Source of the DNA: Escherichia phage DCP80
Sequence record: PQ671644.1
Length of the DNA stretch: 64,000 nt
Reading direction: 5' to 3' (one strand)
Positions within the stretch are counted from its first letter, which is position 1; the number at the start of each line of letters is the position of its first letter. Under the pieces are notes generated by a model that was not told the origin of the DNA, did no database searches, and saw only the letters and a list, made by a program, of their open reading frames with translations. The position numbers and the translations under genes are program-made. Of the stretch, positions 22,472-48,337 are shown one piece after another.

Positions 22472-22933
22472 ATGGAAGTAATGAGTTTGGCTGCATTTGT
22501 AAAATTAGTTGGTTGGTTAGTAGGAGCAATTGCTTTTGTTGTCGGTTCAATCTGGAGCGTAGGTAAAGGCATAGGTGCTATCAAGGGAAAGTTTATTGAT
22601 AACCCAATCAAGGAAGTTAAAGACGAAGTTAAAGCTTTACAGGATAATCTTTCTGAAGTTGAAAAGAAGATTGAATCTGTGGATATCAAACAGCAAGCTC
22701 TGATTGATTCTATCAAGACCAATAGTGATATGACAATGTTGCATATCGAAAAGATTTCAACACAGATGGATGGTATGAAGGAGTTAGTATTATCAAAGAA
22801 TGATGAAGTAAACCGCAGGCTGGCCGAGACTGAAAAACGTCAACAAGACCAGATTAATGAATTTCTGAAAGCTGCACTGGCTAAGGGAATTTCCAACAAC
22901 GTAAACTTTTCCGGAGACCAACGTGTACGATGA
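22472..22933 (+). CDS. Membrane-anchored coiled-coil protein, possible i-spanin
   Basis: 153 aa, N-terminal hydrophobic segment then charged coiled coil; same size and layout as lambda Rz. Confidence 0.4.
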   Translation: MEVMSLAAFVKLVGWLVGAIAFVVGSIWSVGKGIGAIKGKFIDNPIKEVKDEVKALQDNLSEVEKKIESVDIKQQALIDSIKTNSDMTMLHIEKISTQMDGMKELVLSKNDEVNRRLAETEKRQQDQINEFLKAALAKGISNNVNFSGDQRVR

Positions 22934-22958: not shown

Positions 22959-23426
22959 ATGAAAGCAATAGAGTACAAACATATGTTATACGAAAGACAA
23001 CATGGAATTTGTCTGCTATGTAAACTTCCGCTTGAAGATGTTAAAAGTTCCCATCTAGACCACGACCACGCTTTAACAGGTCCTAATGCTGGATTCTGCC
23101 GAGGACTTCTATGTCCTAGTTGTAACGTCTTGGAAGGAACTTTGCTGCATAAATTCAACAGAAGTGGATTAAAAAGTAAAACAACCTTTACAGCTTATCT
23201 TAATAACCTGCTATCTTATTATGCAAATCCACTGCATGAAAAGATACACCCTAATTTTATTAGAGATAAGGTGAAGGCTGTTTCACGGATGAGCAATCAA
23301 AGTATCATAGCTGAAATTGAAAAACTGACCTTTAACCTCCCAGCTGATAAGTCAAAGAAAGGACTTGTCAGTTTCTATCGTAAGGCTCTTAAGAAGTCCC
23401 TGGAGGACGTATGTCTGCAAAGTTAA
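22959..23426 (+). CDS. 49: Endonuclease VII-like Holliday junction resolvase
   Basis: CLLC...HLDHDH...GLLCPSCN...HKFNRSGLK...IHPNF closely follows T4 gp49 as recalled. Confidence 0.8.
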   Translation: MKAIEYKHMLYERQHGICLLCKLPLEDVKSSHLDHDHALTGPNAGFCRGLLCPSCNVLEGTLLHKFNRSGLKSKTTFTAYLNNLLSYYANPLHEKIHPNFIRDKVKAVSRMSNQSIIAEIEKLTFNLPADKSKKGLVSFYRKALKKSLEDVCLQS

Positions 23427-23583
23427 AGGTTAATAAAGATTTACTAAAAAAAGTGCTCATGGCGGCCCTGATAAGCTCCTTGGTATGGAATCATATAGTA
23501 TCACCTATAATTCTAATAACCACAGGTGTAAGTATCACGATTCCGATGCATGAAGTACTTCAACCGTTAATGCTATTACTATA
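23410..23583 (+). CDS. Small membrane protein, possible holin
   Basis: 57-aa ORF below track cutoff, SD GGAGGA, one hydrophobic helix; overlaps end of gene 49. Confidence 0.3.
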
Positions 23584-23592
23584 AGGAATGAT

Positions 23593-24157: not shown

Positions 24158-24457
24158 ATGTACAAGTACAGATATTATAACGAAGAATCATTACTAACGT
24201 TAAAGATAAACGGTGTGAATCCACCAGGTTGTTCATTACCAGAACCAGCTAAAAGTTTAAAGAAATTCCAGAAGGTAAATGATAACGATTACTTTGCTGT
24301 GTCAACTTTGTTCAAGACACCAAAGGTTTCTTATAAGAAAGGGGAAGTTGTTAAACTAGAAGGATTCCCGTTAAGGAGAGAGGCTGTGTGTATCGGTGAT
24401 TTGTTACACACAGAGAAGGGGTACAGAATTAAAAGTTATATCTTCCAATTCTGTTAA
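24158..24457 (+). CDS. Hypothetical protein
   Basis: 99-aa ORF. Confidence 0.35.
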   Translation: MYKYRYYNEESLLTLKINGVNPPGCSLPEPAKSLKKFQKVNDNDYFAVSTLFKTPKVSYKKGEVVKLEGFPLRREAVCIGDLLHTEKGYRIKSYIFQFC

Positions 24458-24464
24458 TTTTAGT

Positions 24465-24776
24465 TTAGTTGAGTTTTTTACAATTAGTTATCAATAAACC
24501 GTTGACATAGAATTCACGTTCCCCACCACGAATCCATGTACCATACATGATTCCATCTCGTTCACGTTTCAGAGCAGGGATTTTCTTCCCGTCGATTTCA
24601 ACAGAACTAGAGCGCAAAGGTGGTGAACGGAATTCCTCTGAACTGAAAGATTCGATAACTGTAACGAACTCCACTTTAATCTCAGGACTGTAACACTGGA
24701 ACTTTTGTACTTCCATTGCATAACTTGATGCAGAGATAAGAAGCAATGATGCGATGATTGTTTTTAAAGTTTTCAT
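24465..24776 (-). CDS. Secreted protein with signal peptide, opposite strand to late operon
   Basis: MKTLKTIIASLLLISASSYA signal-like N-terminus; SD GGAGA before ATG. Confidence 0.5.
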   Translation of the reverse strand: MKTLKTIIASLLLISASSYAMEVQKFQCYSPEIKVEFVTVIESFSSEEFRSPPLRSSSVEIDGKKIPALKRERDGIMYGTWIRGGEREFYVNGLLITNCKKLN

Positions 24777-24868
24777 ATAGTCTCCAAAGTAATAATCTTA
24801 TTTAGTGTTTCAATAGTATAAGATAAGTATAACACATAAATTCTAAAGCGTAAACCTAAGGAGGTTTT

Positions 24869-25333
24869 ATGTCAGAAGCTTTTAACATGCTGATGAAAGA
24901 TGAAGGCATCGAGTATCATCTTTATAAATGCACGCAAGGATACTGGACAATCGGGATTGGTCATATGATTTCCCGTGATAAACAAACAGCTGAACGATTC
25001 CTTAATGAGAAATTTGGGAAGTGTGTAATAAGTAAGGAGCAGGCTATCCAGTTGTTCAAGCAAGATTATAATCATGCAGTATTAGGTGCACAGAGTATCG
25101 TAAGATTAGACACCTACCGTGAATTAGCATTGTCTAATATGGTTTTCCAGATGGGACTTGGTGGTGTACTGAAGTTCAAGAAAATGATAGCTGCACTGAA
25201 GATACAAGACTGGAACGAAGCTTATAAGCAGGCTTTAGATTCTACATGGTATAAACAAACACCTAATCGTGCCAAACGTGTGGCCGAGGTACTAAGAGAT
25301 GGGAAACAAGCATATGTCAAACATTACTCCTGA
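24869..25333 (+). CDS. e: Lysozyme, T4 e-type (GH24)
   Basis: EG..Y.C..GYWTIGIGH, NMVFQMG and WYKQTPNRAKRV match T4 lysozyme motifs. Confidence 0.85.
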   Translation: MSEAFNMLMKDEGIEYHLYKCTQGYWTIGIGHMISRDKQTAERFLNEKFGKCVISKEQAIQLFKQDYNHAVLGAQSIVRLDTYRELALSNMVFQMGLGGVLKFKKMIAALKIQDWNEAYKQALDSTWYKQTPNRAKRVAEVLRDGKQAYVKHYS

Positions 25334-25759: not shown

Positions 25760-26251
25760 ATGTCAACCAAAGACCCGATTTATCTTAACCAAAAACAAAT
25801 CTCCGAATCCTACGGAGTTACGCGCCAGACGATTGCAGAGTGGCAGAAGCGTGAAAATCCAATTCCGTGGATTGCTGGACGGGGATATCCGATGCCTGAT
25901 GCCGGAGTTTGGATTGCAGAAAATTTTATAAAAACTTTAAGACAGAACAACGAAGCACAGGATTTTAATTATCACAAGACAAGGAAGATGGCAGCAGAAG
26001 CGGACATTGCTGAAAGGGAAAACATGCTCGAGGCGCAATCCGTTATCAGAACAGATTTCGTAGAAGAGGAGTTAAGGAATTTTGTTACAAGAGTTAAGGA
26101 AACCCTCCGCGTCATTCCATTGAAGTATGCAGAAGATATTGCTATAAGAGCAACAAGCACATCAGAAGTTAAGAAGGCATTAAGGGAAGCGATTGATAAA
26201 TCCCTGAACGAGATTGACCTGTTGATGTTGTTTGAAGAGCATGAAGAATAA
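25760..26251 (+). CDS. Terminase small subunit, lambda Nu1-like winged HTH
   Basis: KQISESYGVTRQTIAEWQKRE parallels Nu1 KQLADIFGASIRTIQNWQEQG; downstream coiled region matches Nu1 layout. Confidence 0.55.
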   Translation: MSTKDPIYLNQKQISESYGVTRQTIAEWQKRENPIPWIAGRGYPMPDAGVWIAENFIKTLRQNNEAQDFNYHKTRKMAAEADIAERENMLEAQSVIRTDFVEEELRNFVTRVKETLRVIPLKYAEDIAIRATSTSEVKKALREAIDKSLNEIDLLMLFEEHEE

Positions 26252-26281: not shown

Positions 26282-26298
26282 GGTCCCTTACGTCATTC
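26282..26298. terminator. Bidirectional terminator hairpin between convergent genes
   Basis: AAAAAA-GGGACCCGAAGGTCCC. Confidence 0.65.
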
Positions 26299-26532
26299 CC
26301 ACTTAATCGTTGCTACTCGCTCATACACGAGACGTAAATCAATCTTTCCTTTTACGGTATATGTTCTTTGAACTTCCCCTTGTGCTTCCACTGTGAGGCT
26401 ATCAATTAATTCATCGTTTTGATACAATCGATATAGGTTTTTCTGACGGTTTGAAATTGTTAAAGTACGTTGAACTTCTTCTTTAGTATCTTCCAATTTA
26501 TGGAGAGCTTTTAGACTAGTTGATTCGTACAT
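26293..26532 (-). CDS. Hypothetical protein
   Basis: 79-aa ORF. Confidence 0.4.
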   Translation of the reverse strand: MYESTSLKALHKLEDTKEEVQRTLTISNRQKNLYRLYQNDELIDSLTVEAQGEVQRTYTVKGKIDLRLVYERVATIKWE

Positions 26533-26563
26533 AGTTTTCCTTTTTAAAGGGGACCGAAGTCCC

Positions 26564-26890
26564 TTATGCGTATAAGTGTTTTTCTTTCTTACGAAGACAG
26601 TTTTCAGAAGCTGTCAGGAGCTGCAAGTTACTTGGAGCGTTGTTCTTGCGGTTAAAATCGATATGGTCAATGTGCATACCCTCAGGAACTTCAGAATCGT
26701 TATCAAGCATCCACACGATTCGGTGAGCATACTCGTTATTATGAACCGGGTGGAAAACATGGATATAACCAGAAGGTAATTCGTAACCAGCTTCTTTGCC
26801 AGCGTGCTTACCAGTGGTGTAAATCAGTTTGTCATCAACGATTGCATAGTGAGCTTTAACGATGTCGAGAGTAATTTTAGTACGTGCCAT
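26564..26890 (-). CDS. HNH endonuclease
   Basis: HIDHIDFNRKNNAPSNLQLLTASEN HNH motif. Confidence 0.7.
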   Translation of the reverse strand: MARTKITLDIVKAHYAIVDDKLIYTTGKHAGKEAGYELPSGYIHVFHPVHNNEYAHRIVWMLDNDSEVPEGMHIDHIDFNRKNNAPSNLQLLTASENCLRKKEKHLYA

Positions 26891-26908
26891 TTGATATACC
26901 TTTTAAAA

Positions 26909-26957
26909 ATGAAGCACCGGAATTGATGCTTCGCGTTTTCATACTTTTATTTATAAC
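26909..26957 (-). promoter_or_regulatory. Intergenic cassette: TATAAATA, then hairpin with loop TCAATTCCGG
   Basis: Minus-strand reading TATAAATAAAAGTATGAAAACGC-GAAGCA-TCAATTCCGG-TGCTTC-ATTTTT. Confidence 0.5.
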
Positions 26958-26969
26958 AGCTTTTCGGGC

Positions 26970-27152
26970 TTATTCAGAAGTCAGAATAAATTTTTGATAC
27001 TGTTTACCAGTTATCTTGTATCTGATGAAGTTGAACAAATCGAACAAATATCCAAGAGGAATCAGAGCAATCAGAAGTGGTGCCATGATGAACATCAGGA
27101 TTGCTTGGATAACAAACAGAATTGTTTCACCCAGAAATTTTAAAATAAACAT
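26970..27152 (-). CDS. Small membrane protein
   Basis: 60 aa, two hydrophobic segments. Confidence 0.4.
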   Translation of the reverse strand: MFILKFLGETILFVIQAILMFIMAPLLIALIPLGYLFDLFNFIRYKITGKQYQKFILTSE

Positions 27153-27185
27153 AGTTCTCCCGTTGGGGCCGAAGCCCCAGATAAG

Positions 27186-27401
27186 TTAGCGAATTGATTT
27201 TTGTTCTTTAGCGCGATTCTTAATACCAAGTCCTTGCATCGTGGCTTCGATAACCTCGATTGCTTTAACACGTTTTTCATACTCTGCCAGAGTGATTTGT
27301 TTTTTGGCGAATTGTACATAAAGGGCAGACATAGCTTCGTAACTGTTCATAGGATTTCTCTTTAAAGGGAGACACCGGAATTGATGTCTCGTTGTTTTCA
27401 T
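27186..27401 (-). CDS. Hypothetical small protein (true start probably the internal ATG near 27347)
   Basis: Track start lies inside the TATAAATA motif; internal ATG has SD AAAGAG. Confidence 0.35.
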   Translation of the reverse strand: MKTTRHQFRCLPLKRNPMNSYEAMSALYVQFAKKQITLAEYEKRVKAIEVIEATMQGLGIKNRAKEQKSIR

Positions 27402-27418
27402 ACATTTATTTATAACGG
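27369..27418 (-). promoter_or_regulatory. Intergenic cassette: TATAAATA, then hairpin with same loop and covarying stem
   Basis: Stem GAGACA/TGTCTC versus GAAGCA/TGCTTC in the 26909 copy; loop TCAATTCCGG identical. Confidence 0.5.
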
Positions 27419-27422
27419 TCTT

Positions 27423-27713
27423 TTAACGCTTTTTAAAACCACCGAAGAAGGTGCCAGATAATGATTGAGCGATTTTAGAAGCTTCATAGTTGTTTGATTC
27501 AACTTCACCATACTTCCAACCTTTACCAAGGAGTTTCAACCATTTCAATCTAGCGATTGTCACATCATGACCTGCGCAAAGGAGTTCAAATTCTTCCAGT
27601 TCATCATTAAGTAGATAAGCAAGTTTTTCTTTATCCACAGCGTATGTCCAATTGGTACCTTCGAATTCGAAGAAAACTGAATCACCGTGGGTTTCTACAT
27701 TTTTAATCTTCAT
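27423..27713 (-). CDS. Hypothetical protein
   Basis: 96-aa ORF. Confidence 0.4.
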   Translation of the reverse strand: MKIKNVETHGDSVFFEFEGTNWTYAVDKEKLAYLLNDELEEFELLCAGHDVTIARLKWLKLLGKGWKYGEVESNNYEASKIAQSLSGTFFGGFKKR

Positions 27714-27904
27714 TAGATTTCCTTTACAATAAATTTATAAGTTACTTGGGACTCTTTAAAGACAGCTTCCGTTGCCCATTCTTCAGGTTTTTTCGAAAGC
27801 TCTGTGTGATAAAGCATTGCAGCTTCACCCTCTTGTGCTTCCAAAGCTTCTATGTAGCTTCGGCCTTCTTTAAGTTTAATAACACCGCAATCTATGATTC
27901 TCAT
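27713..27904 (-). CDS. Hypothetical protein
   Basis: 63-aa ORF. Confidence 0.35.
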   Translation of the reverse strand: MRIIDCGVIKLKEGRSYIEALEAQEGEAAMLYHTELSKKPEEWATEAVFKESQVTYKFIVKEI

Positions 27905-28215
27905 TTCTTGTCCAGTAGTTGTTGGTAAAATTCGATATGAGCATAAACATCTTGAATCCCGTGTAGGTAATCATCAAAGGTGATGTCCAGGTCTTCAAAG
28001 AAGTTATGATAAATTTCTTGTAGTTTGGTATAACCGTTTTCGTTAGTCATAAGTACCTCGTTGTTTTCATAATTTTATTTATACTGATTAATACTGGTTT
28101 AAATGGCGCCACAACGTGGTTCTGGATATACTATGTTTCTTCAGAACAGATTTCTTATCTTTACGACGAGCATTTTTATACTCGTCTGCAATTTGATTTA
28201 ACTTCTCGTTGGTCA

Positions 28216-28947
28216 TTAAAATTTTACGCATAACAGGTTGTCCAGTTGGTCTTCATGGGTTTCGATTAAGATTTCAGATTCCAGAGCTTCAGCAGCCTGA
28301 ATCATTGTGGCAGTATCACCACCAGCTTTAGCAACGTGAATCACAGTATCGAATTTACGTTTGTAAAGATTTTTCAGTTTAACTTCTTTAGTTTTCTGTG
28401 CAAAGTGTTTTTCAGATTTACGTTTAACTTCAACCAGTTCTTCTTTAACAACTTCAACTTCTTCTTCAGCTTCCTGGATAGCAACGTTTGCTTTCTTCAG
28501 AGCAGCATGTTGTGCACGAATGATTTCCATCATTTCTTCCACAGATAATTCCTCAAGATTGTTGATGTCAAATTTGACAACTTCTTTCTTTTCAACATGG
28601 TGATTAGAATTAACGGTATCGATTTCGTAAATCCAAGTTTTGTCACCGCGACGAGTCATTTCCAGGTTCTGCTGGATATAACCTTTACCTACTTTGTGAA
28701 TCACACGAGCTGAATTCCAATCAGTATGAACTACACAGATTGAATTTTCAAATTCTGCAACAAAGTAATCTCCCTCACCAAAATCAACTGCTTTAGCTTT
28801 AACTGCACGATACAGAGAACGATTAGCTGAACCAATTTCTTGTAACAAAGATTTAACAGAACTAGCATGAATTACTTTGGTTGCATTTTGTACAGACATG
28901 TTGCTTTCAGCTTGGTTTTCGCATTTTTTAAAAAGTTTGATAATCAT
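28216..28947 (-). CDS. Hypothetical protein with C-terminal charged coiled coil
   Basis: 243-aa ORF, no family recognised. Confidence 0.45.
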   Translation of the reverse strand: MIIKLFKKCENQAESNMSVQNATKVIHASSVKSLLQEIGSANRSLYRAVKAKAVDFGEGDYFVAEFENSICVVHTDWNSARVIHKVGKGYIQQNLEMTRRGDKTWIYEIDTVNSNHHVEKKEVVKFDINNLEELSVEEMMEIIRAQHAALKKANVAIQEAEEEVEVVKEELVEVKRKSEKHFAQKTKEVKLKNLYKRKFDTVIHVAKAGGDTATMIQAAEALESEILIETHEDQLDNLLCVKF

Positions 28948-29772
28948 GTGTTTTCCTTTATTTGTTAATCGTGTTATTATTTAGAATTAAAAAGTGATGT
29001 GTAATTCTTTGTTGATTTCAAAGATGACAGTTGCTAATGTCAAGTTGTGTTCTTTACACCAATCAGCACGTTTAGCCGGTGGCAATTTGTTTAACGCACA
29101 GAAGATTTTCATTAATTTAATCTGATAAGAATTCATGGTGACCTCAAGTGTTTCGATGTTTGTTAGGGTTTAAAAAAGAGGTTGTTCACCTCGTCGCTTT
29201 CATACATTTATTTATACACTAATTTTCGGCTCATTAGACAATCAGAAAAGTTCAATCCGGATTCAATCGCGTCAGGAGAATTTCCATGATAATATTTATC
29301 TCTTTATACTCACAAAAAACATTGAAACACATTTTGCAGTTTTTGGACTTTTAATCAAAAAAGGCTGTTTTTGATATTTCCGGGGGGTGCCTATGCCTTC
29401 CGGAGCACTTTTTGAGGCAAAAGTTATAAGAAACCTATTTTAATATATCAAAAGGTAATAACAAAGGCCTTTTTTCCCTCAAAAAACGTCAGAAAAAGGC
29501 TGTTTTTTCAGCTTATTTTGAGCCTTTTTTGAAGGTTCATTTTTGGGACTTTTAATCAAAAAACAAGGGAATTTTTCGGGAGCAGTACAGGGGTACTATC
29601 AGATGATAGGAGCTATCATTTAGAAGGGAGAATTGTGATTACTTATGACCGTTATACGATTGTATCGCGATTATTTGGTCAAATAACGACGAAATAATCA
29701 AAATAAATCATCGAAACACTTAGAAAACAGGCTGTTTTAGGTATAAAAATGGCCCCTTTCGGAGCCTAAAAT

Positions 29773-29979
29773 TTATTTCATACGCAGGTATTTTTCATAA
29801 CTAACTTTTGACAGAGCCAAATAGTAAGCTGCATCTTTTTCTCCCGATAATTTACCTTCAGCAACTGTTGCACAATCTTCTTTGAAAGTTGCTTCCCAGG
29901 AAAATCCATCAAGCCAATCGGAAAATTGTTGTTCGTTCATATTAACCTCTGTAATGTCTGTTGTAATGGTGTACTGCAA
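29773..29979 (-). CDS. Hypothetical protein
   Basis: 68-aa ORF. Confidence 0.35.
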   Translation of the reverse strand: MQYTITTDITEVNMNEQQFSDWLDGFSWEATFKEDCATVAEGKLSGEKDAAYYLALSKVSYEKYLRMK

Positions 29980-30288
29980 TTTCTGTGCAAAGGTCTTCGA
30001 AGACCAATGGGATTATGTTTTCTCGGTAGACAACATAACTGTACTGTCTGTAGGTGTAGACCTCTTTATATTTCTCGAAGAACATAAACAGGTCTTGATT
30101 AGCTGTAACTTCTAACGGGGTGATTTTCCCGGCTGCATCAACTATCATACTTCCTCCTTATTAACTTAATAATAGGCTCCCGCTCAGAAACCTATGATAA
30201 GGTACCACACATGAATTTAATCAAAGGTCTTCACATCACTAAAGACCTTTTGTTAAACACATGAATCAGGTCATCACTCCTGATACTT

Positions 30289-30609
30289 TTATTTATAACG
30301 GGATTTATTCATCCATTCAAATATGCCAGGGTTCCATTCGATGTTACCCATCGCTACATAATGATTGATTGCTTCTCGCAGAGACACCTGGAAGAATTCG
30401 GATTCGTCAAGTAATGAAACAATGATTTCCCCTTGTGCCTGTAAATCATCAACTGTCATCATGGAAAGAATTTCATATGCTGATTGAATTTCGTCTTCTG
30501 TGAAATCTGTGTCGAACCAATCATTAAGGTTATCATCAGATTTGTAATTATTGTAATAAGCCATACCTTCGATAACCAGATTGATAATTTCATTTACGTT
30601 GTTCATAAT
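30289..30609 (-). CDS. Hypothetical acidic protein
   Basis: ~106 aa from ATG near 30609; track ORF 30289..30768 reads through the N-run. Confidence 0.4.
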   Translation of the reverse strand: MMNNVNEIINLVIEGMAYYNNYKSDDNLNDWFDTDFTEDEIQSAYEILSMMTVDDLQAQGEIIVSLLDESEFFQVSLREAINHYVAMGNIEWNPGIFEWMNKSRYK

Positions 30610-30710
30610 TTTCTCTTTGTGTTTGGTTGATATGATAATGATACACCCTTTTGATGAGGTTGTAAACCCCTTATTGCAAATACATCTGGCATTGAAACAA
30701 ATAAATGCCA

Positions 30711-31678: not shown

Positions 31679-31765
31679 AGTTTTTATGATTCATTGTGTA
31701 ACTCAGTATGGAATCATTATGCCTCATGACCATCTGGTTGTACACTACTTTTTTAAAATAAAAAA

Positions 31766-34776: not shown

Positions 34777-34979
34777 TGCTTAGCTCCATTCCAAATTACA
34801 TCAACAACAGACTTCAAACCATTATCCTGGATTTGTGTGAATACTTCAGCAGCAATCCAGACCTGGAAACCAATCATTGCAATGGCACCAATGAAAATCA
34901 GGATAATCATTGCCACAATAAACTTGAACATAAAGTCAAAGCGACGATTGGATTTCTGAAAGTGTGAATTGTAATTCAT
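34773..34979 (-). CDS. Small membrane protein
   Basis: Start moved to internal Met MNYNSHF; homolog truncated by gap at 49790. Confidence 0.4.
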   Translation of the reverse strand: MNYNSHFQKSNRRFDFMFKFIVAMIILIFIGAIAMIGFQVWIAAEVFTQIQDNGLKSVVDVIWNGAKQ

Positions 34980-35132
34980 AATATTATCCTCAAAAGAAAT
35001 AGTTAAAGTAAACACGTACATGGTCAATCATAAAAATAATTGGGAAAATGCTCAGGACAACAAACAATACAAACATGTTCCAAATGGCTTTAAGTAACTT
35101 TTTCATAATCATCTCCAGTAGTTGATAGGTTC

Positions 35133-35161
35133 ATTATACTACAACCACCGGAGATGTACAC
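35133..35161 (-). promoter_or_regulatory. Sigma70-type early promoter (-35 GTGTACA, -10 TATAAT) with conserved leader CTATCAACTACTGGAG
   Basis: Minus-strand AAAAGAGTGTACA-16 nt-TATAAT; same cassette recurs at many minus-strand genes. Confidence 0.55.
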
Positions 35162-35251
35162 TCTTTTATGCAAGTTTCATTAATAATAAACTAAAACAAA
35201 CGCAAATTACTGGAATACACAACATCCAGATAAGACACCAGGTTTTGCTGC

Positions 35252-35518
35252 TCAAAATATCACCTCTTTTATTTCAATCAGACCCCTGTGCAATGCGGTG
35301 CGAAGGTCATAAAGAATATCTATGCCATCAACATTATCCAGTTTTCCATCAATAAGCTTTTTTAAATCATGCTTTGATGCAACTAGCGGGCGAAGAAATT
35401 TACATTCAGAAAGAGACAATTCTGTAGTAATATCATCACCATCACCTGACGCATCATACATGGCAGCAACAACCATACCTGTAACTTTGTGCTTGGCGTA
35501 ATATAATTTAATATCCAT
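35252..35518 (-). CDS. Hypothetical protein, member of small paralog family
   Basis: MDIKLYYAKHKVTG; paralogs at 48689 and 48949. Confidence 0.4.
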   Translation of the reverse strand: MDIKLYYAKHKVTGMVVAAMYDASGDGDDITTELSLSECKFLRPLVASKHDLKKLIDGKLDNVDGIDILYDLRTALHRGLIEIKEVIF

Positions 35519-35762
35519 TCTGTTTTCCTCACGCATAACGATTGTATGTATTTTTACGACAAGCGTAAAATTGACGCTCAGTAACTGCAAAACTTTTTCC
35601 GCGTTGTTGCATTAATTTAAAAAATTCAGTAATATCGCCATTAACTTCAAGGTATAAAGTCATTGCATATTGAGCAGGTTTCATTTTATTCTCCAGTCTG
35701 TTTGGTAACTCAGTATGGAATCATTATGCACTGACTCCATACTGATGTACACTACTTTTTAA

Positions 35763-36038
35763 TTAATTGTGCATTTGTTCTTTAACTTCTTTATATGCGC
35801 CAACTGCATTCACGACCCCAGTAAAATCTGCAGTCCCACGATAGAGATAGAAAGCAATTTCAGTCAGGTGGTAGACTTCAAATTCTGAAAGATAAACGAT
35901 AACGTCATAATATGCAACTTGACCCTGGACTTCGTTGAATGCCACATCAAAAATTTCATGGGTTGGAAAATTGATGTTGTTGTTTTTGAGTGCTTGGATA
36001 AGAATTTGTTTGATGTTGTGAGTAGTAACGTGTTCCAT
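35763..36038 (-). CDS. Hypothetical protein
   Basis: Start set at MEHVTTH after promoter cassette. Confidence 0.4.
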   Translation of the reverse strand: MEHVTTHNIKQILIQALKNNNINFPTHEIFDVAFNEVQGQVAYYDVIVYLSEFEVYHLTEIAFYLYRGTADFTGVVNAVGAYKEVKEQMHN

Positions 36039-36085
36039 GATAATGTCCTCATTTGTTGGTATGAGGACATTATTACACGGTTGGT

Positions 36086-36679
36086 TCAGCTTGTAAACCG
36101 GTGATAGGGAAATTTTTCTTCTGAACAAGAACGGAGGTACCAGCCATCCCCTTGTGACTTCTGCACAAGACCAGACTCAGGAACGAAAGCACCAGGCCCA
36201 GCAAGGAATTTTGGTTTAAATCTATAACCTTTGAGAGTCTCTTTTACATCGAGCATAATCATAAGGTCAGCAAGCTTGTGCTGCATAAAAGGACCAAGAT
36301 TAATCCCGTAACCATGCGGATAATCGCCCTGGTGGCCAGTGTGTACGGATATCCATTTGGAACCAGACTGGTGGGTCTTGACTTCGATTCTTACCCCTTC
36401 CTTCGAAACTACATCAAATGCAAAGGAATAAGGATTATCGTAATCTTCGTCGCCGCCACATAAAAAACCAGAAGTCCATTTAGCAATAGCTTGTTCAGCC
36501 ATTGTAGCAACCATGCATCTTTGCATGACTTGCTCACGGTCCTGACCTGGGTCTTTACGCAATGAATACCGGGTAGTGTCTACAATCTTCTGCAGGGATT
36601 CGGGGTTTAAGTCTTCCTTTGTATAAAGAAAGGAGGGCATCTTTTTCAGATGCTCCCAGGTTTTACTCTTCTGAATCAT
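36086..36679 (-). CDS. denB: Endonuclease IV DenB-like
   Basis: AIAKW, YDNPY, FAFDV.SKEG.RIEVK.HQSGSKWI and GLVQKS.G.GWYLR resemble T4 DenB; sits between rIIB and ndd as in T4. Confidence 0.6.
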   Translation of the reverse strand: MIQKSKTWEHLKKMPSFLYTKEDLNPESLQKIVDTTRYSLRKDPGQDREQVMQRCMVATMAEQAIAKWTSGFLCGGDEDYDNPYSFAFDVVSKEGVRIEVKTHQSGSKWISVHTGHQGDYPHGYGINLGPFMQHKLADLMIMLDVKETLKGYRFKPKFLAGPGAFVPESGLVQKSQGDGWYLRSCSEEKFPYHRFTS

Positions 36680-36932
36680 TTACGACCTCATCGATACCGA
36701 CGATTCCACGGATGTGAAGCTCACCATAATACAAACGGTCATTAGCATCAAATGTATCAGAATCCGGGTCAGGGAATTCCCCAACAACTACTTCATCACA
36801 TTCCAACCAACCATAGTGAACATCACCTTCATGCTTGATGAGCTTACCGCAGTAAACTATTCCTGCATAATGATGACCCCGGAGATTTGAAACTTTGATG
36901 TCACGGTCTGACACATTGAAATGCTTAATCAT
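36663..36932 (-). CDS. Hypothetical protein
   Basis: 89-aa ORF. Confidence 0.4.
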   Translation of the reverse strand: MIKHFNVSDRDIKVSNLRGHHYAGIVYCGKLIKHEGDVHYGWLECDEVVVGEFPDPDSDTFDANDRLYYGELHIRGIVGIDEVVNDSEE

Positions 36933-36935
36933 AAT

Positions 36936-37133
36936 TTATTCACCAAAATAAGAGATACGAGTTGCCAGTACATGAGCATAAGCGCCCATCGCGTCTAACT
37001 GTGCAATCAAAAGACCTTGTTGACGAGCATCGAGAGTTTCAAAAACACCGCCCTTAATAAATTCTTCAAGAGCATTGATTTTCAAAACCAGCTGGTCATG
37101 TTCTTCAACTACACGTGCTTGGAAACCTAACAT
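36936..37133 (-). CDS. Hypothetical protein
   Basis: 65-aa ORF. Confidence 0.4.
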   Translation of the reverse strand: MLGFQARVVEEHDQLVLKINALEEFIKGGVFETLDARQQGLLIAQLDAMGAYAHVLATRISYFGE

Positions 37134-37146
37134 AAAGCCTCATTAG

Positions 37147-37160
37147 GGGCCGAAGCCCCG
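37147..37160. terminator. Terminator-type hairpin GGGGCCGAAGCCCC
   Basis: In the rIIB-downstream intergenic gap where arm 2 carries an HNH gene. Confidence 0.5.
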
Positions 37161-37166
37161 ATTAAT

Positions 37167-38141
37167 TTAGAATTGTTCAGTTACATCATCAAGGACCAGG
37201 TAACCACAGACCCTCATCTTACTATCACCATAATCCACCGGGATACTTACAACATCACGCGGGTGAACTTTACAGGATACGATGCGTCCATCACCATGAC
37301 CAAAACCACTTCCAATATAACCTTTAGAGCAAACATGCAACCCAGTTGAACAAGTTTGTTCGTCATTATCGTTCACACGAGAGCGCGGCATTTTAACATA
37401 TTGACCAGGGCTGTTGTCGAATGTATTTGAGTGACAATCTTTGTAAGTTGCACGAACCATTTTCCATGCGATGAAATGACCGTCTTCGGTGATTTCGATA
37501 TCGTTCGCAACCAGGAAGTCAAACAAACGCTGTACGGCTTTCTCACTCGGGTTCTCAAGGAGATTCTCAAGGAACGGCAGATAGAATTCAAAGTCTTCGC
37601 CATTTTGCATTGAATCAATGATACGAGTAACCAGGCCAGAGCGTAGTTCAATTCCCTGATAGAACAGACTACCACCTTCAATACGCACATCGCCTTTCAC
37701 ATATTTTTGTACTGCAGCTTTGATTGAGATAAACTCGATAGCATCATCAAAACGAGATTCAATCAATGCCTGAATAATATCATTAAAGTGTTTATGGTCT
37801 TTTGTGGCGTTCCAGACTGTGCGACCTTCAGTGATGGAAACGAATTTGCTTGATGCGTTCCATACGATTTCTGGGCGGCTACCGCCGATTGTATCTTCAA
37901 CGACCGGAACTTCAACCATTACTGTCACCGGAGCATTAATCGCCACACCAACAGCTGCTTTCAGTGATGCAGAAATGGTTTTAGATAATTTTGATTCTTT
38001 ATCATTTTTCAAAACACGGCGAATGGTGTCAACCGATACACCGAAATTATCTGCTAGTTCCTGTTGGGTATAATTACCAGTTTTATAAAGAGAAACTACC
38101 TGGTTTTGGTCAAATTTGGATAAAGCTTTAATATTAAACAT
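37167..38141 (-). CDS. rIIB: rIIB protein
   Basis: MFNIK...GNYTQQELA..GVSVDTIRRVLKN and C-terminal HVCSKGYI...VHPRDVVSIP match T4 rIIB. Confidence 0.85.
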   Translation of the reverse strand: MFNIKALSKFDQNQVVSLYKTGNYTQQELADNFGVSVDTIRRVLKNDKESKLSKTISASLKAAVGVAINAPVTVMVEVPVVEDTIGGSRPEIVWNASSKFVSITEGRTVWNATKDHKHFNDIIQALIESRFDDAIEFISIKAAVQKYVKGDVRIEGGSLFYQGIELRSGLVTRIIDSMQNGEDFEFYLPFLENLLENPSEKAVQRLFDFLVANDIEITEDGHFIAWKMVRATYKDCHSNTFDNSPGQYVKMPRSRVNDNDEQTCSTGLHVCSKGYIGSGFGHGDGRIVSCKVHPRDVVSIPVDYGDSKMRVCGYLVLDDVTEQF

Positions 38142-38142
38142 A

Positions 38143-40377
38143 TTATTCCTTATTGGCCGCTTCCACGGCCTTCATGATTTGAGCAACGTTCTGTACTTGT
38201 TCAGTTGACATAGCGTTACGGTTATATAAAAAGTGTGAAACAATCGGGTGATTCTTTTCAAATTCAAAAACCATTTTATCGCTTGTTACCGAAGCGTTTT
38301 TGGTCAGGTCGTCATAAATCTTATTACAAAGGACCAGCGTTTCCTGCATGGTCTTATCAACCGTTCCACTGTTATATGCGTTATAAGCAAAGAACTTATT
38401 GAACTGCATTAGTTCGGCATAGTCAGTATTCACATCTTTCTGAACATCTTTTGCATAAAAATACTTGAACATAAAATTCAGTTCTGCATATTCAGACAGG
38501 ATAGGAATATAATAACGCGAACGGCTTGAAGCGGCAATGTACTGGTCTGCATCAACCGCATCAATCAATTCCACATAACGATTGACTGCAGCTTCAATCA
38601 GACAATCGCACTGCGCCAGCTTGGTAACCTTTTTCTGAAGCTGTGGACGAATAACACAGAATTCATTGATTTCCAACAGATTCGCCAGTTTGCACAATGT
38701 CTGGGTCCCGAAGGTCGTGGTGCCATATTCTTGATTCAACGGGGAAATGCTACTGCGGTTAATGAATACAGCATAACCATCGATTTCCTCTGCATCAGCT
38801 GCACATGTAAATTCTTCAACAGACTGCCAGCGACCATTGGTTTTAGTCCAACGAATCAATGATGGAGTCTTTGACTTAATGCGCGCTTTCGGGTCAGCAA
38901 CCGGAATCCAGTCTTTTACAAGGGCAGTCAGTTCAGACGTACGATAGATATTAACCGTATCGCCTTCAAATCGTTCCTGGAGTTGAACCATCAACCGTGT
39001 CTGAATTTCGCTGGTCGGGTCAACAAACAGTAAACTACTACCCTGACGAGTCGGGACTTTACCAGATGCAATAAGCTTTTTAGCTTTTGCGCTGGTATCA
39101 TACAACATTGAACTGATACCACGAATCATCGCAATTCGCCCTTTAACATCGTCAATAACAATGTTCAAGGTATCATTCTGAATACCAAACATGCTCGTCA
39201 GACTTGCCGTGTTCGAGCTTGAGCTTGAGTTGCGCAGACGTTTCAGACGAGTGTCACGATAGATATCATAGACAACCCCGGCATTAATAAGGTCTTTGTC
39301 CAGCTCGAACATTTCGTACATCTGGTTAAAGGTCAATTGTGATTTCGTAAATTTCGTTTCAGCATTACGAGCTTTCAGAAAATTACGAGCTTCATAATTC
39401 AGATTCTGCAATTCGCGATATGTATGGCGAAGACATTCTGATTCCTGCCATTTCTTACAATCGTCTTCCATGACTTTCTTATCAAGGGCTTCAATACGTT
39501 CAACGATATTTGCGACCGTACGTTTGTCCAGTGATAACGCTTCGCGAGAAGGTGCAATATCCAACGAACCCATCGGGAACTTAATAAAGACAACATCATT
39601 TTTGGCAGTCATCCAGGTTTTCTTGGTGTAACCATCACCAATCGGATAAACAATTCCGCCATAAATTGCATAAAGTCCATAACGTTCTGGACTGCTATAA
39701 TTAATACGCGCTGGAGCATAGTAATCATCAAATTCCGGGAAGTATTCAATTTCGCCAGCGCCTTGCACTTCAGCCAGCCCAGCAAATGGACGCATGATAT
39801 ACGCAATCTCGTAGCGGAACTTACCAAAATCATTACTATCAACCGGGACAACAACTTCAATCCCTGTGCGGTCACCAGGTTTCATTGGTTCACTAAAGGT
39901 TGGCTTAATCTGTGGACCATCGCCGTCCATATAAGCGACATATCCATTAACTTGACCATCATGATATGAAATCAGGCTAAACGTCTCGGTATAACTGAAC
40001 GGAGATTTAGAACCCAGACCAAAGCCACCAATAAAATCGTTGGATTCGGCCTTGGATGATGCAAAGAAACTGTTATACAGACCTGGAGTATTTTCATCAC
40101 CACGAATCTGGAAATCACTCATACCCGGACCAAAGTCACGACATACAAAACGTGGGTCCAGTTCACCAGGAGCTTGCACAATGAATTTATCCTGACATCC
40201 ATTGAGCATATGAGCATCAATCATATTGGTAATCAGCTCACGAACAACCGCGCGCACCTTGTTTGTATAAAGGTCGCTGGTCAGAATCTTAAACACCTTT
40301 GGAGATGCCTGGATTGTGAATGCTGATGCCTTGGCACCATTACCAAGGATTGTTTCCTTTTCAGTTTCTAAAATCAT
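38143..40377 (-). CDS. rIIA: rIIA protein
   Basis: MILETEKETILGNGAKASAFTIQASPKVFKIL...VVRELITNMIDAH matches T4 rIIA N-terminus. Confidence 0.9.
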   Translation of the reverse strand: MILETEKETILGNGAKASAFTIQASPKVFKILTSDLYTNKVRAVVRELITNMIDAHMLNGCQDKFIVQAPGELDPRFVCRDFGPGMSDFQIRGDENTPGLYNSFFASSKAESNDFIGGFGLGSKSPFSYTETFSLISYHDGQVNGYVAYMDGDGPQIKPTFSEPMKPGDRTGIEVVVPVDSNDFGKFRYEIAYIMRPFAGLAEVQGAGEIEYFPEFDDYYAPARINYSSPERYGLYAIYGGIVYPIGDGYTKKTWMTAKNDVVFIKFPMGSLDIAPSREALSLDKRTVANIVERIEALDKKVMEDDCKKWQESECLRHTYRELQNLNYEARNFLKARNAETKFTKSQLTFNQMYEMFELDKDLINAGVVYDIYRDTRLKRLRNSSSSSNTASLTSMFGIQNDTLNIVIDDVKGRIAMIRGISSMLYDTSAKAKKLIASGKVPTRQGSSLLFVDPTSEIQTRLMVQLQERFEGDTVNIYRTSELTALVKDWIPVADPKARIKSKTPSLIRWTKTNGRWQSVEEFTCAADAEEIDGYAVFINRSSISPLNQEYGTTTFGTQTLCKLANLLEINEFCVIRPQLQKKVTKLAQCDCLIEAAVNRYVELIDAVDADQYIAASSRSRYYIPILSEYAELNFMFKYFYAKDVQKDVNTDYAELMQFNKFFAYNAYNSGTVDKTMQETLVLCNKIYDDLTKNASVTSDKMVFEFEKNHPIVSHFLYNRNAMSTEQVQNVAQIMKAVEAANKE

Positions 40378-40384
40378 GTTTTTC

Positions 40385-40594
40385 TCACTTTATGTTACGT
40401 TTGATTAATTCTGCAACTTCAAGAAGTTCATCCTTTGTTGCGGTGTCTGAAGCTATTTTAATACGGATTTCTTTGAAGCGTTCTTTAAACTCTTCAGCTT
40501 CTCTTATATCAAAAAAACGTTGGATAACACGGTATTCTTTATGGATAGCCTTATCAAACAGTTCCATATTAACTTTGAAGTTCGTCATTTCCAA
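40385..40594 (-). CDS. Hypothetical protein upstream of rIIA
   Basis: 69-aa ORF, same in both arms. Confidence 0.4.
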   Translation of the reverse strand: MEMTNFKVNMELFDKAIHKEYRVIQRFFDIREAEEFKERFKEIRIKIASDTATKDELLEVAELIKRNIK

Positions 40595-40853
40595 TCTCCT
40601 GTAATATTTTTCTCATACTACGCATGGTAGCTTTATGTTCTTGGTCATGGTATATCAATGCAAGGAGTGCTTCAATTCGCTCCTCAGGGACCTTCTGGCC
40701 AGCCTTAATTCTCATGGCTGATGTTCTTACAGCTAACAAGTAACTTCGCTTCCTGTCGTTATCTGGGAGCCCCTGCACTTTCCTCAGACCTGCTTCCATA
40801 ATACACCGTGCGACATTTTGCAGATTAACTAAACTTCCGTCAGACATAATCAT
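40569..40853 (-). CDS. Hypothetical protein
   Basis: 94-aa ORF, same in both arms. Confidence 0.4.
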   Translation of the reverse strand: MIMSDGSLVNLQNVARCIMEAGLRKVQGLPDNDRKRSYLLAVRTSAMRIKAGQKVPEERIEALLALIYHDQEHKATMRSMRKILQEIGNDELQS

Positions 40854-40910
40854 ATTTTCACCTCAAAGACATCTTAACACACTTTTTGTGGCTTGTACAT
40901 AATAAAAAGG

Positions 40911-40928
40911 TCTCCCGAAGGAGACCAA
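40911..40928. terminator. Terminator hairpin GGTCTCCCGAAGGAGACC
   Basis: Inverted copy at 42992. Confidence 0.6.
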
Positions 40929-40983
40929 ATTTTATTCTACTTTATAGACTTGACCATACGCCATGAAAGTTTCACCTTCCCAG

Positions 40984-41040
40984 GTTTCGCACGNNNNNNN
41001 NNNNNNNNNNNNNNNNNNNNNNNNNNNNNNNNNNNNNNNN
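40984..41040. other. Assembly gap (N57), scaffold joint
   Basis: N-run; removes 5' end of gene 39. Confidence 0.9.
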
Positions 41041-42796: not shown

Positions 42797-42991
42797 GATG
42801 TGGGAGAATATTCTCCCGCTACTAGGAGACAATATGACTAAATACTGGATTACACTCGCTACCGGTGAATATGGTTTTCTCTGGGCAGAGAAAAAGCCTT
42901 TGTTTGCAGAATTTGTAACAATCACGTGCGAAACCTGGGAAGGTGAAACTTTCATGGCGTATGGTCAAGTCTATAAAGTAGAATAAAATTT

Positions 42992-43014
42992 GGTCTCCTT
43001 CGGGAGACCTTTTT
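42992..43014 (+). terminator. Rho-independent terminator
   Basis: GGTCTCCTTCGGGAGACC plus TTTTTATT. Confidence 0.7.
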
Positions 43015-43064
43015 ATTATGTACAAGCCACAAAAATTGTGTTAAGATGTCTTTGAGGTGAAAAT

Positions 43065-43349
43065 ATGATTATGTCTGACGGAAGTTTAGTTAATCTGCAG
43101 AATGTCGCACGGTGTATTATGGAAGCAGGCCTGAGGAAGGTACAGGAGCTCCCAGATAGCGACAGGAAGCGAAGTTACTTGTTAGCTGTAAGAACAGCAG
43201 CCATGAGCATTAAGGCTGGCCAGAAGGTCCCTGAGGAGCGAATTGAAGCACTTCTTGCATTGATATACCATGACCAAGAACATAAAGCTACCATGCGTAG
43301 TATGAGAAAAATATTACAGGAGATTGGAAATGACGAACTTCAAAGTTAA
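43065..43349 (+). CDS. Hypothetical protein (homolog of 40569..40853)
   Basis: 94 aa, 4 substitutions versus arm 1. Confidence 0.4.
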   Translation: MIMSDGSLVNLQNVARCIMEAGLRKVQELPDSDRKRSYLLAVRTAAMSIKAGQKVPEERIEALLALIYHDQEHKATMRSMRKILQEIGNDELQS

Positions 43350-43533
43350 TATGGAGCTGTTTGATAAAGCTGTTCATAAAGAATACCGCGTTATCCAACG
43401 ATTTTTTGATATAAGAGAAGCTGAAGAGTTTAAAGAACGCTTCAAAGAAATCCGTATTAAAATAGCTTCAGACACCGCAACAAAGGATGAACTTCTTGAA
43501 GTTGCAGAATTAATCAAACGTAACATAAAGTGA
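43324..43533 (+). CDS. Hypothetical protein (homolog of 40385..40594)
   Basis: 69 aa. Confidence 0.4.
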   Translation: MEMTNFKVNMELFDKAVHKEYRVIQRFFDIREAEEFKERFKEIRIKIASDTATKDELLEVAELIKRNIK

Positions 43534-43540
43534 GAAAAAC

Positions 43541-45775: not shown

Positions 45776-45776
45776 T

Positions 45777-47440: not shown

Positions 47441-47443
47441 ATT

Positions 47444-48290: not shown

Positions 48291-48337
48291 ACCAACTGTG
48301 TAATAATGTCCTCATACCAACAAATAAGGACATTATC

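What the first reader, a model, noticed from the sequence alone, without database searches (positions are those of the whole stretch)
24465..24776. Opposite-strand secreted protein inside the late operon
A 103-aa protein with a signal peptide is encoded antisense to the surrounding late genes with its own RBS, a moron-like arrangement. It could be a superinfection-exclusion or host-envelope-targeting factor.
Basis: inference. Interest (0 to 1): 0.45.

Follow-up and report, generated by a model that had tools for sequence, protein, structure and literature searches.

The report
Phage periplasmic lysozyme-inhibitor-like barrel protein
The antisense ORF is a real, conserved phage gene for a small exported protein whose predicted fold most resembles bacterial periplasmic lysozyme inhibitors, and it lies head-to-head with the phage's own T4-type lysozyme gene, so it may be a new kind of phage lysozyme blocker, which remains untested.

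Summary
Window 24465-24776 (-) is an intact 103-aa ORF. It has a GGAG ribosome-binding site, a Sec-type signal peptide (MKTLKTIIASLLLISASSYA|ME, no lipobox) and an 82-83-aa mature part with two invariant cysteines. It is the only non-overlapped minus-strand gene in a roughly 25-kb plus-strand block.

Only three allele types exist in about 15 billion public proteins. All sit in relatives of the same novel 30.6-kb siphovirus, always antisense between orf99 and a T4-type (GH24) lysozyme gene.

Between otherwise near-identical genomes, orf103 and the catalytic N-lobe of the lysozyme form one deeply diverged roughly 600-bp block.

Best reading (about 0.4): a periplasmic modulator or inhibitor of GH24 muramidases, a functional analogue of T4 Spackle on a different scaffold. 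The "moron" label is not supported. GC content is normal, the gene is present in all relatives, and there is no sign of lysogeny. The window is also a concatenation of unrelated phage records.

The parts
24465..24776 (-). orf103 CDS (103 aa including signal peptide; stop TAA 24465-24467)
   Evidence: Conserved in three allele types. dN/dS 0.30-0.45.
24717..24776 (-). Signal peptide codons 1-20 (MKTLKTIIASLLLISASSYA); predicted SPase I cleavage after A20
   Evidence: Read from the sequence. Hydropathy. Architecture conserved across alleles. Not run through SignalP.
24468..24716 (-). Mature periplasmic domain (83 aa). Predicted 8-9-strand beta-barrel. Invariant Cys28 and Cys99 (probable disulfide). 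Invariant S51-P52-x-L54 loop.
24782..24785 (-). Shine-Dalgarno GGAG, 5 nt upstream of the ATG
   Evidence: conserved in alleles A, B and C
24826..24854 (-). Sigma70-like promoter candidate TTTACG-N17-TATACT with TG extension
   Evidence: 9/12 match. Identical in alleles A and B, poorly kept in C. The scan is not enriched over shuffles, so this is weak.
24423..24454 (-). 13-bp hairpin 11 nt after the stop codon, inside the 3' end of orf99. It is stronger on the orf103 strand (G-U pairs). Candidate 3' end or terminator.
   Evidence: A hairpin is present in all alleles. In allele C it is followed by a U-run.
24777..24868 (.). 92-nt AT-rich (26% GC) divergent control region shared with the lysozyme gene
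   Evidence: Better conserved between alleles A and B than the flanking synonymous sites.
24869..25333 (+). T4-type (GH24) endolysin, 154 aa, triad E12-x8-C21-x5-T27, no signal or SAR domain. Divergently transcribed neighbour and proposed functional partner.
   Evidence: Pfam PF00959 8e-13. 48% identity to gene e lysozymes of T4-like Aeromonas phages. Sequences.
24455..25070 (.). Deeply diverged allelic block: orf103 plus the first ~70 codons of the lysozyme gene
   Evidence: Sliding identity. A vs B dS is 1.26 (orf103) and 1.12 (lysozyme codons 1-70), against 0.09-0.26 in flanking genes and 0.16 in lysozyme codons 71-end.

Best explanation
orf103 encodes a Sec-exported protein whose signal peptide is cleaved. 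The mature ~83-aa product is a periplasmic 8-stranded beta-barrel, closed by a Cys28-Cys99 disulfide, with the MliC/PliC/PhiA lysozyme-inhibitor fold.

I propose it binds and dampens a T4-type (GH24) muramidase in the periplasm of the infected Gram-negative cell. It would be made from its own promoter, independently of and probably before the plus-strand structural and lysis transcript. It would protect the murein from GH24 lysozymes that reach the periplasm too early. Those could be tail lysozymes of superinfecting T4-like phages (Spackle-like exclusion) and/or leaked copies of the phage's own endolysin. Late read-through transcription towards the endolysin gene would oppose its expression, allowing lysis.

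Shown: the gene is real; it has export signals; the fold prediction and its best structural matches; adjacency to and co-inheritance with the lysozyme N-lobe.

Inferred: periplasmic location, the disulfide, binding to a lysozyme, expression timing, and the biological role.
For: - AF2 gives mean pLDDT 81, with 90-95 over residues 50-100, and all-beta structure.
- Size, signal peptide, periplasmic location and a single N-to-C disulfide match PliC (PMC2267010) and PhiA (PMC8334348).
- PhiA is the proposed inhibitor of SagA, a T4-lysozyme-like muramidase, and like orf103 it lacks SGxxY (PMC8334348).
- hhalign aligns the whole mature domain colinearly with MliC, with both Cys matched. BLASTP against E. 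coli MliC gives E 0.004 over the C-terminal 34 aa. Shuffle tests give p about 0.008 for allele A.
- The gene is head-to-head with the only lysozyme found in the genome.
- Its alleles are co-inherited with the catalytic N-lobe of that lysozyme as one block of high dS, while the tail-tip protein stays 96-97% identical.
- There is a precedent for a phage periplasmic inhibitor of a GH24 lysozyme: T4 Spackle (PMC7677548).
Against: - No sequence-level membership: no Pfam, PHROG, NCBIfam or PADLOC hit. No PDB sequence hit. hhalign probability 0.3%, E 0.21. Alleles B and C are not distinguishable from shuffles.
- Foldseek found nothing significant. PliC and PhiA appear only at E 0.14-0.27.
- The model rests on a 4-sequence alignment, and two of five models had pLDDT 40-45.
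- The SGxxY inhibitory motif is absent.
- PhiA itself did not inhibit SagA in vitro (PMC8334348).
- Co-inheritance with the lysozyme N-lobe may be no more than physical adjacency.
- A stoichiometric inhibitor of one's own endolysin has no obvious benefit.
- Promoter evidence is weak.
Confidence: 0.4

Rival explanations
1. A periplasmic superinfection-exclusion factor that acts on something other than a lysozyme, for example by blocking the receptor, the periplasmic path of the tail tube or tape measure, or an inner-membrane DNA-entry component. This would work like Cor, Llp, Sim or Imm.
For: - It is an exported small protein encoded among the tail and lysis genes with its own expression signals.
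- The weak Foldseek BFVD matches are to small phage lipoproteins of T1-like phages (E 0.013-0.06). One of these, ESCO41_00005, has the same Cys...NC pattern.
Against: - No lipobox and no transmembrane segment.
- No hit to Pfam PF24052 (the Cor family), which readily detects the ESCO41 Cor-like protein.
- orf103 alleles do not co-vary with the tail-tip protein, which is 96-97% identical across alleles A and B.
Confidence: 0.17
2. A periplasmic lysis-timing regulator that binds the holin or spanin rather than the endolysin. This would be analogous to the T4 RI antiholin.
For: - It lies inside a scattered lysis region: orf153 with a weak Rz-like hit, the membrane protein orf57, and the endolysin.
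- It is periplasmic.
- Its opposite-strand expression would allow separate timing.
Against: - There is no PHROG lysis-family hit.
- The candidate holin orf57 has almost no periplasmic domain to bind.
- The holin candidate is not part of the co-inherited block.
Confidence: 0.13
3. A generic small-ligand or lipid-binding periplasmic barrel (lipocalin or FABP-like), or another host-physiology modulator with no link to murein hydrolysis.
Against: - The best and nearly full-length matches are to the lysozyme-inhibitor barrels, with the same disulfide topology.
- The fixed position next to the lysozyme in all relatives is left unexplained.
Confidence: 0.15
4. Not a gene: a chance antisense ORF in an intergenic gap.
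For: No match to any family library. Very few homologues exist.
Against: - Three alleles at 31-40% identity keep the frame, length, signal peptide, both Cys, the RBS and 17 invariant positions.
- dN/dS is below 0.5.
- The fold prediction is confident.
- There is no alternative ORF on the plus strand in the 411-nt gap.
Confidence: 0.02

Closest known systems
Brucella abortus PhiA (PDB 7dpy), the proposed peptidoglycan-hydrolase inhibitor of the T4-lysozyme-like muramidase SagA
   Same: - Periplasmic, with a cleaved signal.
- Flattened 8-strand barrel stapled by one N-to-C disulfide.
- Lacks the SGxxY motif.
- Associated with a GH24/T4L-type enzyme (PMC8334348).
   Different: - No detectable sequence similarity.
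- PhiA is bacterial and tetrameric, and did not inhibit SagA in vitro.
- orf103 is phage-encoded and sits beside an endolysin.
PliC/MliC family (Pfam PF09864, COG3895), periplasmic or lipoprotein inhibitors of c-type lysozyme
   Same: - Same size, export and Cys pair position (PMC2267010).
- Marginal C-terminal sequence resemblance, DGI.Y..W..G.E..Y....NC.
   Different: - Fails the Pfam model and hhalign significance.
- No SGxxY loop.
- The likely target would be GH24, not GH22.
- E. coli MliC has no tblastn match in 50,697 phage records.
T4 Spackle (gp61.3)
   Same: A phage-encoded small periplasmic protein with a cleaved signal peptide and one disulfide. It inhibits a GH24 lysozyme (gp5) to give superinfection exclusion and resistance to lysis from without (PMC7677548, PMC7650644). 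This is the closest functional model.
   Different: - Spackle is an alpha-helical bundle, unrelated in fold and sequence.
- It is encoded away from gene e.
- It does not act on the endolysin.
Drexlerviridae small lipoprotein (ESCO41_00005 type; BFVD A0A1U9WR30)
   Same: A phage-encoded exported protein of about 70 aa (mature) with Cys near the N-terminus and an ...NNC.. motif near the C-terminus. It gives a weak Foldseek match (E 0.019). It is found in 232 phage records.
   Different: - It is a lipoprotein (it has a lipobox).
- It is located among early or DNA-metabolism genes, not next to the endolysin.
- There is no sequence similarity beyond the signal peptide.
- Its function is unknown.
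Cor / Llp superinfection-exclusion lipoproteins
   Same: Small exported phage proteins encoded near tail genes. T5 llp is, by my recollection (not verified here), on the opposite strand to its neighbours.
   Different: orf103 has no lipobox, gives no PF24052 hit, and shows no co-variation with the receptor-binding protein.

Membership tests
MliC/PliC (PF09864/COG3895) | Sec or lipoprotein signal giving periplasmic location | tested here: met
   n/h/c regions and an S-x-A|M site, kept in three alleles. This is rule-based; SignalP was not available.
MliC/PliC (PF09864/COG3895) | 8-stranded antiparallel beta-barrel of about 80-90 residues | tested here: met
   [not shown]
MliC/PliC (PF09864/COG3895) | Conserved Cys pair (first and last strands) forming a disulfide | tested here: met
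   C28 and C99 are invariant. Both align with MliC C37 and C102 in hhalign. The bond itself is inferred.
MliC/PliC (PF09864/COG3895) | Match to the family HMM or significant profile similarity | tested here: not met
   No Pfam hit even at E<=10 for the four sequences of alignment A1, covering all three allele types. hhalign probability 0.3%, E 0.21. Shuffle p is 0.008, 0.15 and 0.1 for alleles A, B and C.
MliC/PliC (PF09864/COG3895) | SGxxY inhibitory loop | tested here: not met
   No SGxxY in any allele. The aligned segment is ALKRE (A68-E72).
MliC/PliC (PF09864/COG3895) | Inhibits c-type lysozyme | not testable with these tools
   Needs an enzyme assay.
PhiA-like (MliC/PliC fold without SGxxY, paired with a T4L-type muramidase) | Fold plus disulfide plus absence of SGxxY | tested here: met
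   PMC8334348.
PhiA-like (MliC/PliC fold without SGxxY, paired with a T4L-type muramidase) | Sequence homology to PhiA | tested here: not met
   A profile search of all PDB sequences at E<=10 did not return 7dpy.
PhiA-like (MliC/PliC fold without SGxxY, paired with a T4L-type muramidase) | Functional pairing with a GH24 muramidase | tested here: inconclusive
   Adjacent to and co-inherited with a GH24 endolysin. No interaction data.
T4 Spackle (gp61.3) | Alpha-helical bundle fold and Spackle sequence family | tested here: not met
   The model is all-beta. No PHROG hit.
T4 Spackle (gp61.3) | Periplasmic, cleaved signal, one disulfide, inhibits a GH24 lysozyme | tested here: inconclusive
   The first three are met by sequence. 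Inhibition is untested.
Moron (independently expressed accessory gene of temperate phages) | Own promoter and terminator | tested here: inconclusive
   A promoter-like site and a 3' hairpin exist, but the scans are not above shuffled expectation.
Moron (independently expressed accessory gene of temperate phages) | Atypical composition and sporadic presence among relatives | tested here: not met
   GC is 38.5% against 39.3% for the genome. The gene is present in every relative recovered.
Moron (independently expressed accessory gene of temperate phages) | Temperate host phage | tested here: not met
   No integrase or repressor among the ORFs tested. No prophage relative in the genome-contig collection. 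Not every small ORF was scanned.
Cor/Llp-type exclusion lipoproteins | Lipobox Cys and family HMM (PF24052) | tested here: not met
   No Cys before residue 28. No Pfam hit. The control protein from ESCO41 hits PF24052 at 1e-39.

The most novel reading that the evidence does not exclude
orf103 and the adjacent endolysin form a matched 'muramidase / periplasmic anti-muramidase' cassette. The beta-barrel inhibitor would be built on the bacterial MliC/PliC scaffold but directed against T4-type (GH24) phage lysozymes. Its alleles would be exchanged together with the catalytic lobe of the endolysin, so that each phage either spares its own enzyme while blocking rivals' tail lysozymes, or tunes its own lysis clock. 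That would be the second known class of phage lysozyme inhibitor after Spackle, and the first clear case of this scaffold acting on GH24.
Probability: 0.3. Interest if true: 0.7.

Novelty: new variant of a known kind. Interest (0 to 1): 0.5.

Why it matters
Protein inhibitors of lysozymes are known from bacteria, where they act against animal lysozymes. Only one phage example is known: T4 Spackle, a helical protein that acts against the gp5 tail lysozyme. A phage-borne MliC/PliC-like barrel aimed at T4-type lysozymes would have several consequences.
- It would show convergent or borrowed use of the bacterial scaffold in phage-phage competition or lysis control.
- It would provide a natural inhibitor of GH24 endolysins, which matters for endolysin therapeutics.
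- It would bear on the open question raised by Brucella PhiA/SagA, namely whether this fold can regulate T4L-type muramidases.

If the hypothesis fails, the result is still a validated, exported orphan protein family with unusually deep allelic divergence in a new phage lineage.

Tried and rejected
Searches that found little or nothing:
- Megablast and tblastn of the region and of orf103 against 50,697 phage records gave no match.
- Pfam, PHROGs, NCBIfam and PADLOC gave nothing for orf103. The only entries were a sub-threshold FomA-porin hit (E 0.0075, 15.5 bits against a 125-bit cutoff, residues 1-50 = signal peptide plus the first mature residues) and sub-threshold single-member hits (holin T and DUF1408 in Pfam, CwrA and FabG in NCBIfam) that I disregard.
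- A PDB sequence profile search gave only noise.
- phmmer over 1.84 billion representatives found only alleles B and C. It also found three large repeat proteins that match a DG.(L/M)YGT..GG hairpin motif over about 26-35 residues, which I judge spurious.
- IMG/VR scans with orf183 and with the orf103 alignment, a JGI metagenome scan with orf183, and a GTDB genome scan with TerL found no relatives.
- The afdb50 fold library was unavailable.
- The PhiA genetics paper (PMC6652757) is not held.

Ideas considered and rejected:
- Outer-membrane beta-barrel: too short, and there is no C-terminal aromatic residue.
- o-spanin or u-spanin: no lipobox and no transmembrane domain.
- Cor/Llp: see the membership test.
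- In-situ positive selection as the cause of the hypervariability: dS is as elevated as dN in the block, so this is an old or imported allele, not rapid local evolution.
- A fused lysozyme-linker-orf103 co-fold was not attempted.

Full report
**Observation**

The N-terminus reads MKTLKTIIASLLLISASSYA|MEVQ. It has a basic n-region, a hydrophobic core and a small-x-small cleavage site. There is no cysteine before residue 28, so it is a type I (Sec/SPase I) signal peptide and not a lipoprotein signal. Hydropathy peaks at 2.8 in the signal peptide and stays at or below 1.8 in the rest of the protein. SignalP was not available, so this reading is rule-based.

A GGAG lies 5 nt upstream of the ATG. 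From about 1466 to 26251, every other non-overlapped ORF is on the plus strand. orf103 fills the 411-nt gap between orf99 (ends 24457) and a lysozyme gene (starts 24869).

**Context**

The window is not one genome.

- Positions 1-111 are repeated exactly at 30600-30710. An independent ENA contig of 30,478 bp joins window ~104 to ~30306. So 1-30710 is a circularly closed contig of about 30.6 kb.
- From 30711 onward the genes are T4-like: MotA, topoisomerase II, Ndd, DenB, rIIA/rIIB, gp46/47, gp45. This part is 98% identical to E. coli phage CJ20.
- A second, related T4-like piece is joined head-to-head at about 41040/41041.

The 30.6-kb unit is a siphovirus. It carries TerL, portal, a protease-capsid fusion, tail fibres, major tail protein, tape measure, Dit and tail tip. 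These are followed by endonuclease VII, small ORFs, the lysozyme, terS and an HNH gene.

Its TerL is less than 30% identical to any GenBank phage. No prophage relative was found in 185,579 species genomes. No integrase or repressor was seen among the ORFs tested.

The lysozyme is a T4 gene e-type GH24 enzyme (Pfam PF00959; 48% identity to Aeromonas T4-like gene e lysozymes). It has the triad E12-x8-C21-x5-T27 and no signal or SAR domain. No other peptidoglycan hydrolase was detected in the structural proteins.

**Is orf103 a real gene?**

In 5.8 billion and 1.84 billion-sequence protein collections, orf103 has only three relatives. They define three allele types:

- A: the window, L001 and L015, 98-99% identical to each other.
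- B: L002, L003 and L007, 108 aa from MKTFKTLL.
- C: L004, 98 aa.

The types are 31-40% identical to one another. All lie in relatives of the same phage, from at least five independent sequencing runs. All sit in the same place and orientation, between orf99 and the lysozyme gene.

Across the alleles the following are kept:

- the reading frame;
- the signal-peptide architecture, with its own -3/-1 site in each allele;
- both cysteines, an S-P-x-L loop, several turn glycines and the C-terminal N-C;
- the GGAG-N5-ATG arrangement.

Nei-Gojobori dN/dS is 0.30-0.45. A chance ORF is excluded.

**Fold**

AlphaFold2 on the four-sequence alignment gives mean pLDDT 81, with 90-95 over residues 50-100, and 8-9 beta-strands. 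Three of the five models agree and two are poor.

These proteins are periplasmic, about 85-90 residues long, and form 8-stranded barrels stapled by one disulfide between the first and last strands (PMC2267010, PMC8334348). orf103 shows the same size, export signal and Cys pair.

PhiA is of particular interest. It lacks the SGxxY loop that PliC and MliC insert into c-type lysozymes. It was proposed from genetics to inhibit SagA, a muramidase with the T4-lysozyme fold and Glu-Asp-Thr triad, although purified PhiA did not inhibit SagA (PMC8334348).

**Limits of the fold evidence**

- Foldseek found no significant PDB hit. PliC and PhiA appear at E 0.14-0.27.
- Pfam MliC does not match any allele, even at E<=10.
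- hhalign of the orf103 family against an enterobacterial MliC profile gives probability 0.3% and E 0.21. The alignment is nevertheless colinear over the whole mature domain and pairs both cysteines.
- BLASTP against E. coli MliC gives E 0.004 for the C-terminal 34 residues.
- In shuffle tests only allele A stands out (p about 0.008; alleles B and C 0.1-0.15).
- SGxxY is absent.

orf103 therefore shares the fold and topology of the MliC/PliC/PhiA barrels, but I do not file it as a member of PF09864.

**Population genetics of the locus**

Between alleles A and B the flanking genes are 95-100% identical in protein, including the tail tip at 97%. The lysozyme is 84% identical and orf103 only 40%.

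The nucleotide profile shows a sharp drop from 24455 to about 25070, with partial recovery across the intergenic region.

| Region (A vs B) | dS |
|---|---|
| Flanking genes | 0.09-0.26 |
| Lysozyme codons 71-end | 0.16 |
| Lysozyme codons 1-70 | 1.12 |
| orf103 | 1.26 |

The hypervariability is therefore not rapid local positive selection. It is an old or imported block of about 600 bp, made of orf103 plus the catalytic N-lobe of the endolysin. Within it orf103 evolves faster (omega about 0.45) than the lysozyme N-lobe (omega about 0.17). This co-inheritance fits a functional pairing, but physical adjacency alone could explain it.

GC and GC3 of orf103 equal the genome average.

**Expression signals**

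- A sigma70-like site, TTTACG-17-TGtTATACT, lies at 24854-24826 on the orf103 strand. It is identical in alleles A and B and poorly kept in C. The scan as a whole is not enriched over shuffles, so this is weak evidence.
- A 13-bp hairpin starts 11 nt after the stop codon (24454-24423). It is more stable on the orf103 strand because of G-U pairs. A hairpin is present at this position in all alleles, and in allele C it is followed by a U-run.
- There is no terminator between orf99 and the lysozyme gene on the plus strand. Late transcription towards the endolysin would therefore run antisense through orf103. That is a plausible off-switch, but it is an inference.

**Interpretation**

The most specific reading the evidence supports is a periplasmic binder or inhibitor of a T4-type muramidase. 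This would be a functional analogue of T4 Spackle, the helical periplasmic protein that blocks the gp5 tail lysozyme and gives superinfection exclusion (PMC7677548). Here the scaffold would be MliC/PliC/PhiA-like. I put this at about 0.4.

The rivals are:

- a periplasmic exclusion factor with a non-lysozyme target (0.17);
- an RI-like lysis-timing regulator (0.13);
- an unrelated ligand-binding barrel (0.15);
- not a gene (0.02).

The remainder is anything else.

Composition is normal, the gene is present in all relatives, and there is no evidence of lysogeny. The suggested exclusion or envelope role survives.

**Novelty**

E. coli MliC has no tblastn match in 50,697 phage genomes. The paper library holds no report of a phage-encoded PliC/MliC-like protein.

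Weak Foldseek matches in BFVD led to a Drexlerviridae lipoprotein, ESCO41_00005, found in 232 phage records. It has a similar Cys...NNC pattern and unknown function. This suggests that such small disulfide-stapled barrels may be a wider, unrecognised class of exported phage proteins.

I rate the finding a new variant of a known kind, with interest 0.5. The structural and genomic link to lysozyme is suggestive and directly testable, but it rests on a fold prediction from a shallow alignment.

Noticed in passing
window 1-111 = 30600-30710; junctions at 30710/30711 and about 41040/41041: The window is a concatenation of unrelated records. The first is a circularly closed ~30.6-kb novel siphovirus contig with a 111-nt terminal overlap. 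It is followed by two E. coli T4-like phage pieces (98% and ~95% identical to phages CJ20 and 212) joined head-to-head. That join produces the apparent 6-kb inverted duplication (34833-40993 against 42925-49790).
   Followed up: yes
window 1-30599: The 30.6-kb siphovirus is a new lineage. TerL is under 30% identical to any GenBank phage. There are no IMG/VR, JGI or GTDB relatives; it appears only in Logan and ENA assemblies. No replication, integrase or repressor gene was recognised, and about 4 kb of minus-strand small ORFs (26293-30600) have no family at all.
   Followed up: partly
window 24869-25333 (+), codon 21: The endolysin has Cys where T4 lysozyme has the catalytic Asp20 (E12-x8-C21-x5-T27). 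This holds in all alleles (LYKCT[QE]GY).
   Followed up: partly
L016 (KY619305) 41151-41423 (+): The Drexlerviridae lipoprotein ESCO41_00005 (90 aa) has a lipobox, then FYDC...VNNC. This is an MliC-like cysteine pattern and the protein is a weak structural match to orf103. Homologues occur in 232 phage records (mostly Klebsiella Webervirus), all annotated hypothetical. It may be a related class of exported phage barrels.
   Followed up: partly
window 700-767 and 849-916: A 68-nt direct repeat (79% identity, 149-nt spacing) lies in the non-coding region upstream of TerL in the siphovirus. It could be an origin, iteron or packaging site.
   Followed up: no
window 31687-31751, 35694-35758, 58976-59040: A 65-nt repeat (TGTAACTCAGTATGGAATCATTATG...TGTACACTACTTT) occurs three times in the T4-like parts of the window. 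It looks like a recurring regulatory or promoter element.
   Followed up: no
window 5789-7789 (+): A 666-aa protein matches both head maturation protease and major head protein PHROGs. It appears to be a protease-capsid fusion.
   Followed up: no
window 22472-22933 (+) and 23411-23584 (+): The lysis genes look scattered. orf153 (N-terminal transmembrane segment plus coiled coil, weak Rz-like hit) and orf57 (membrane protein, possible holin) are separated from the endolysin by endonuclease VII, orf183, orf99 and orf103. No o-spanin lipoprotein was found.
   Followed up: partly
window 26564-26890 (-) and 25760-26251 (+): An HNH endonuclease gene lies next to terS. terS sits at the far end of the plus-strand block from TerL (1734-3716), so the two are separated across the circle by the minus-strand early region.
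   Followed up: no
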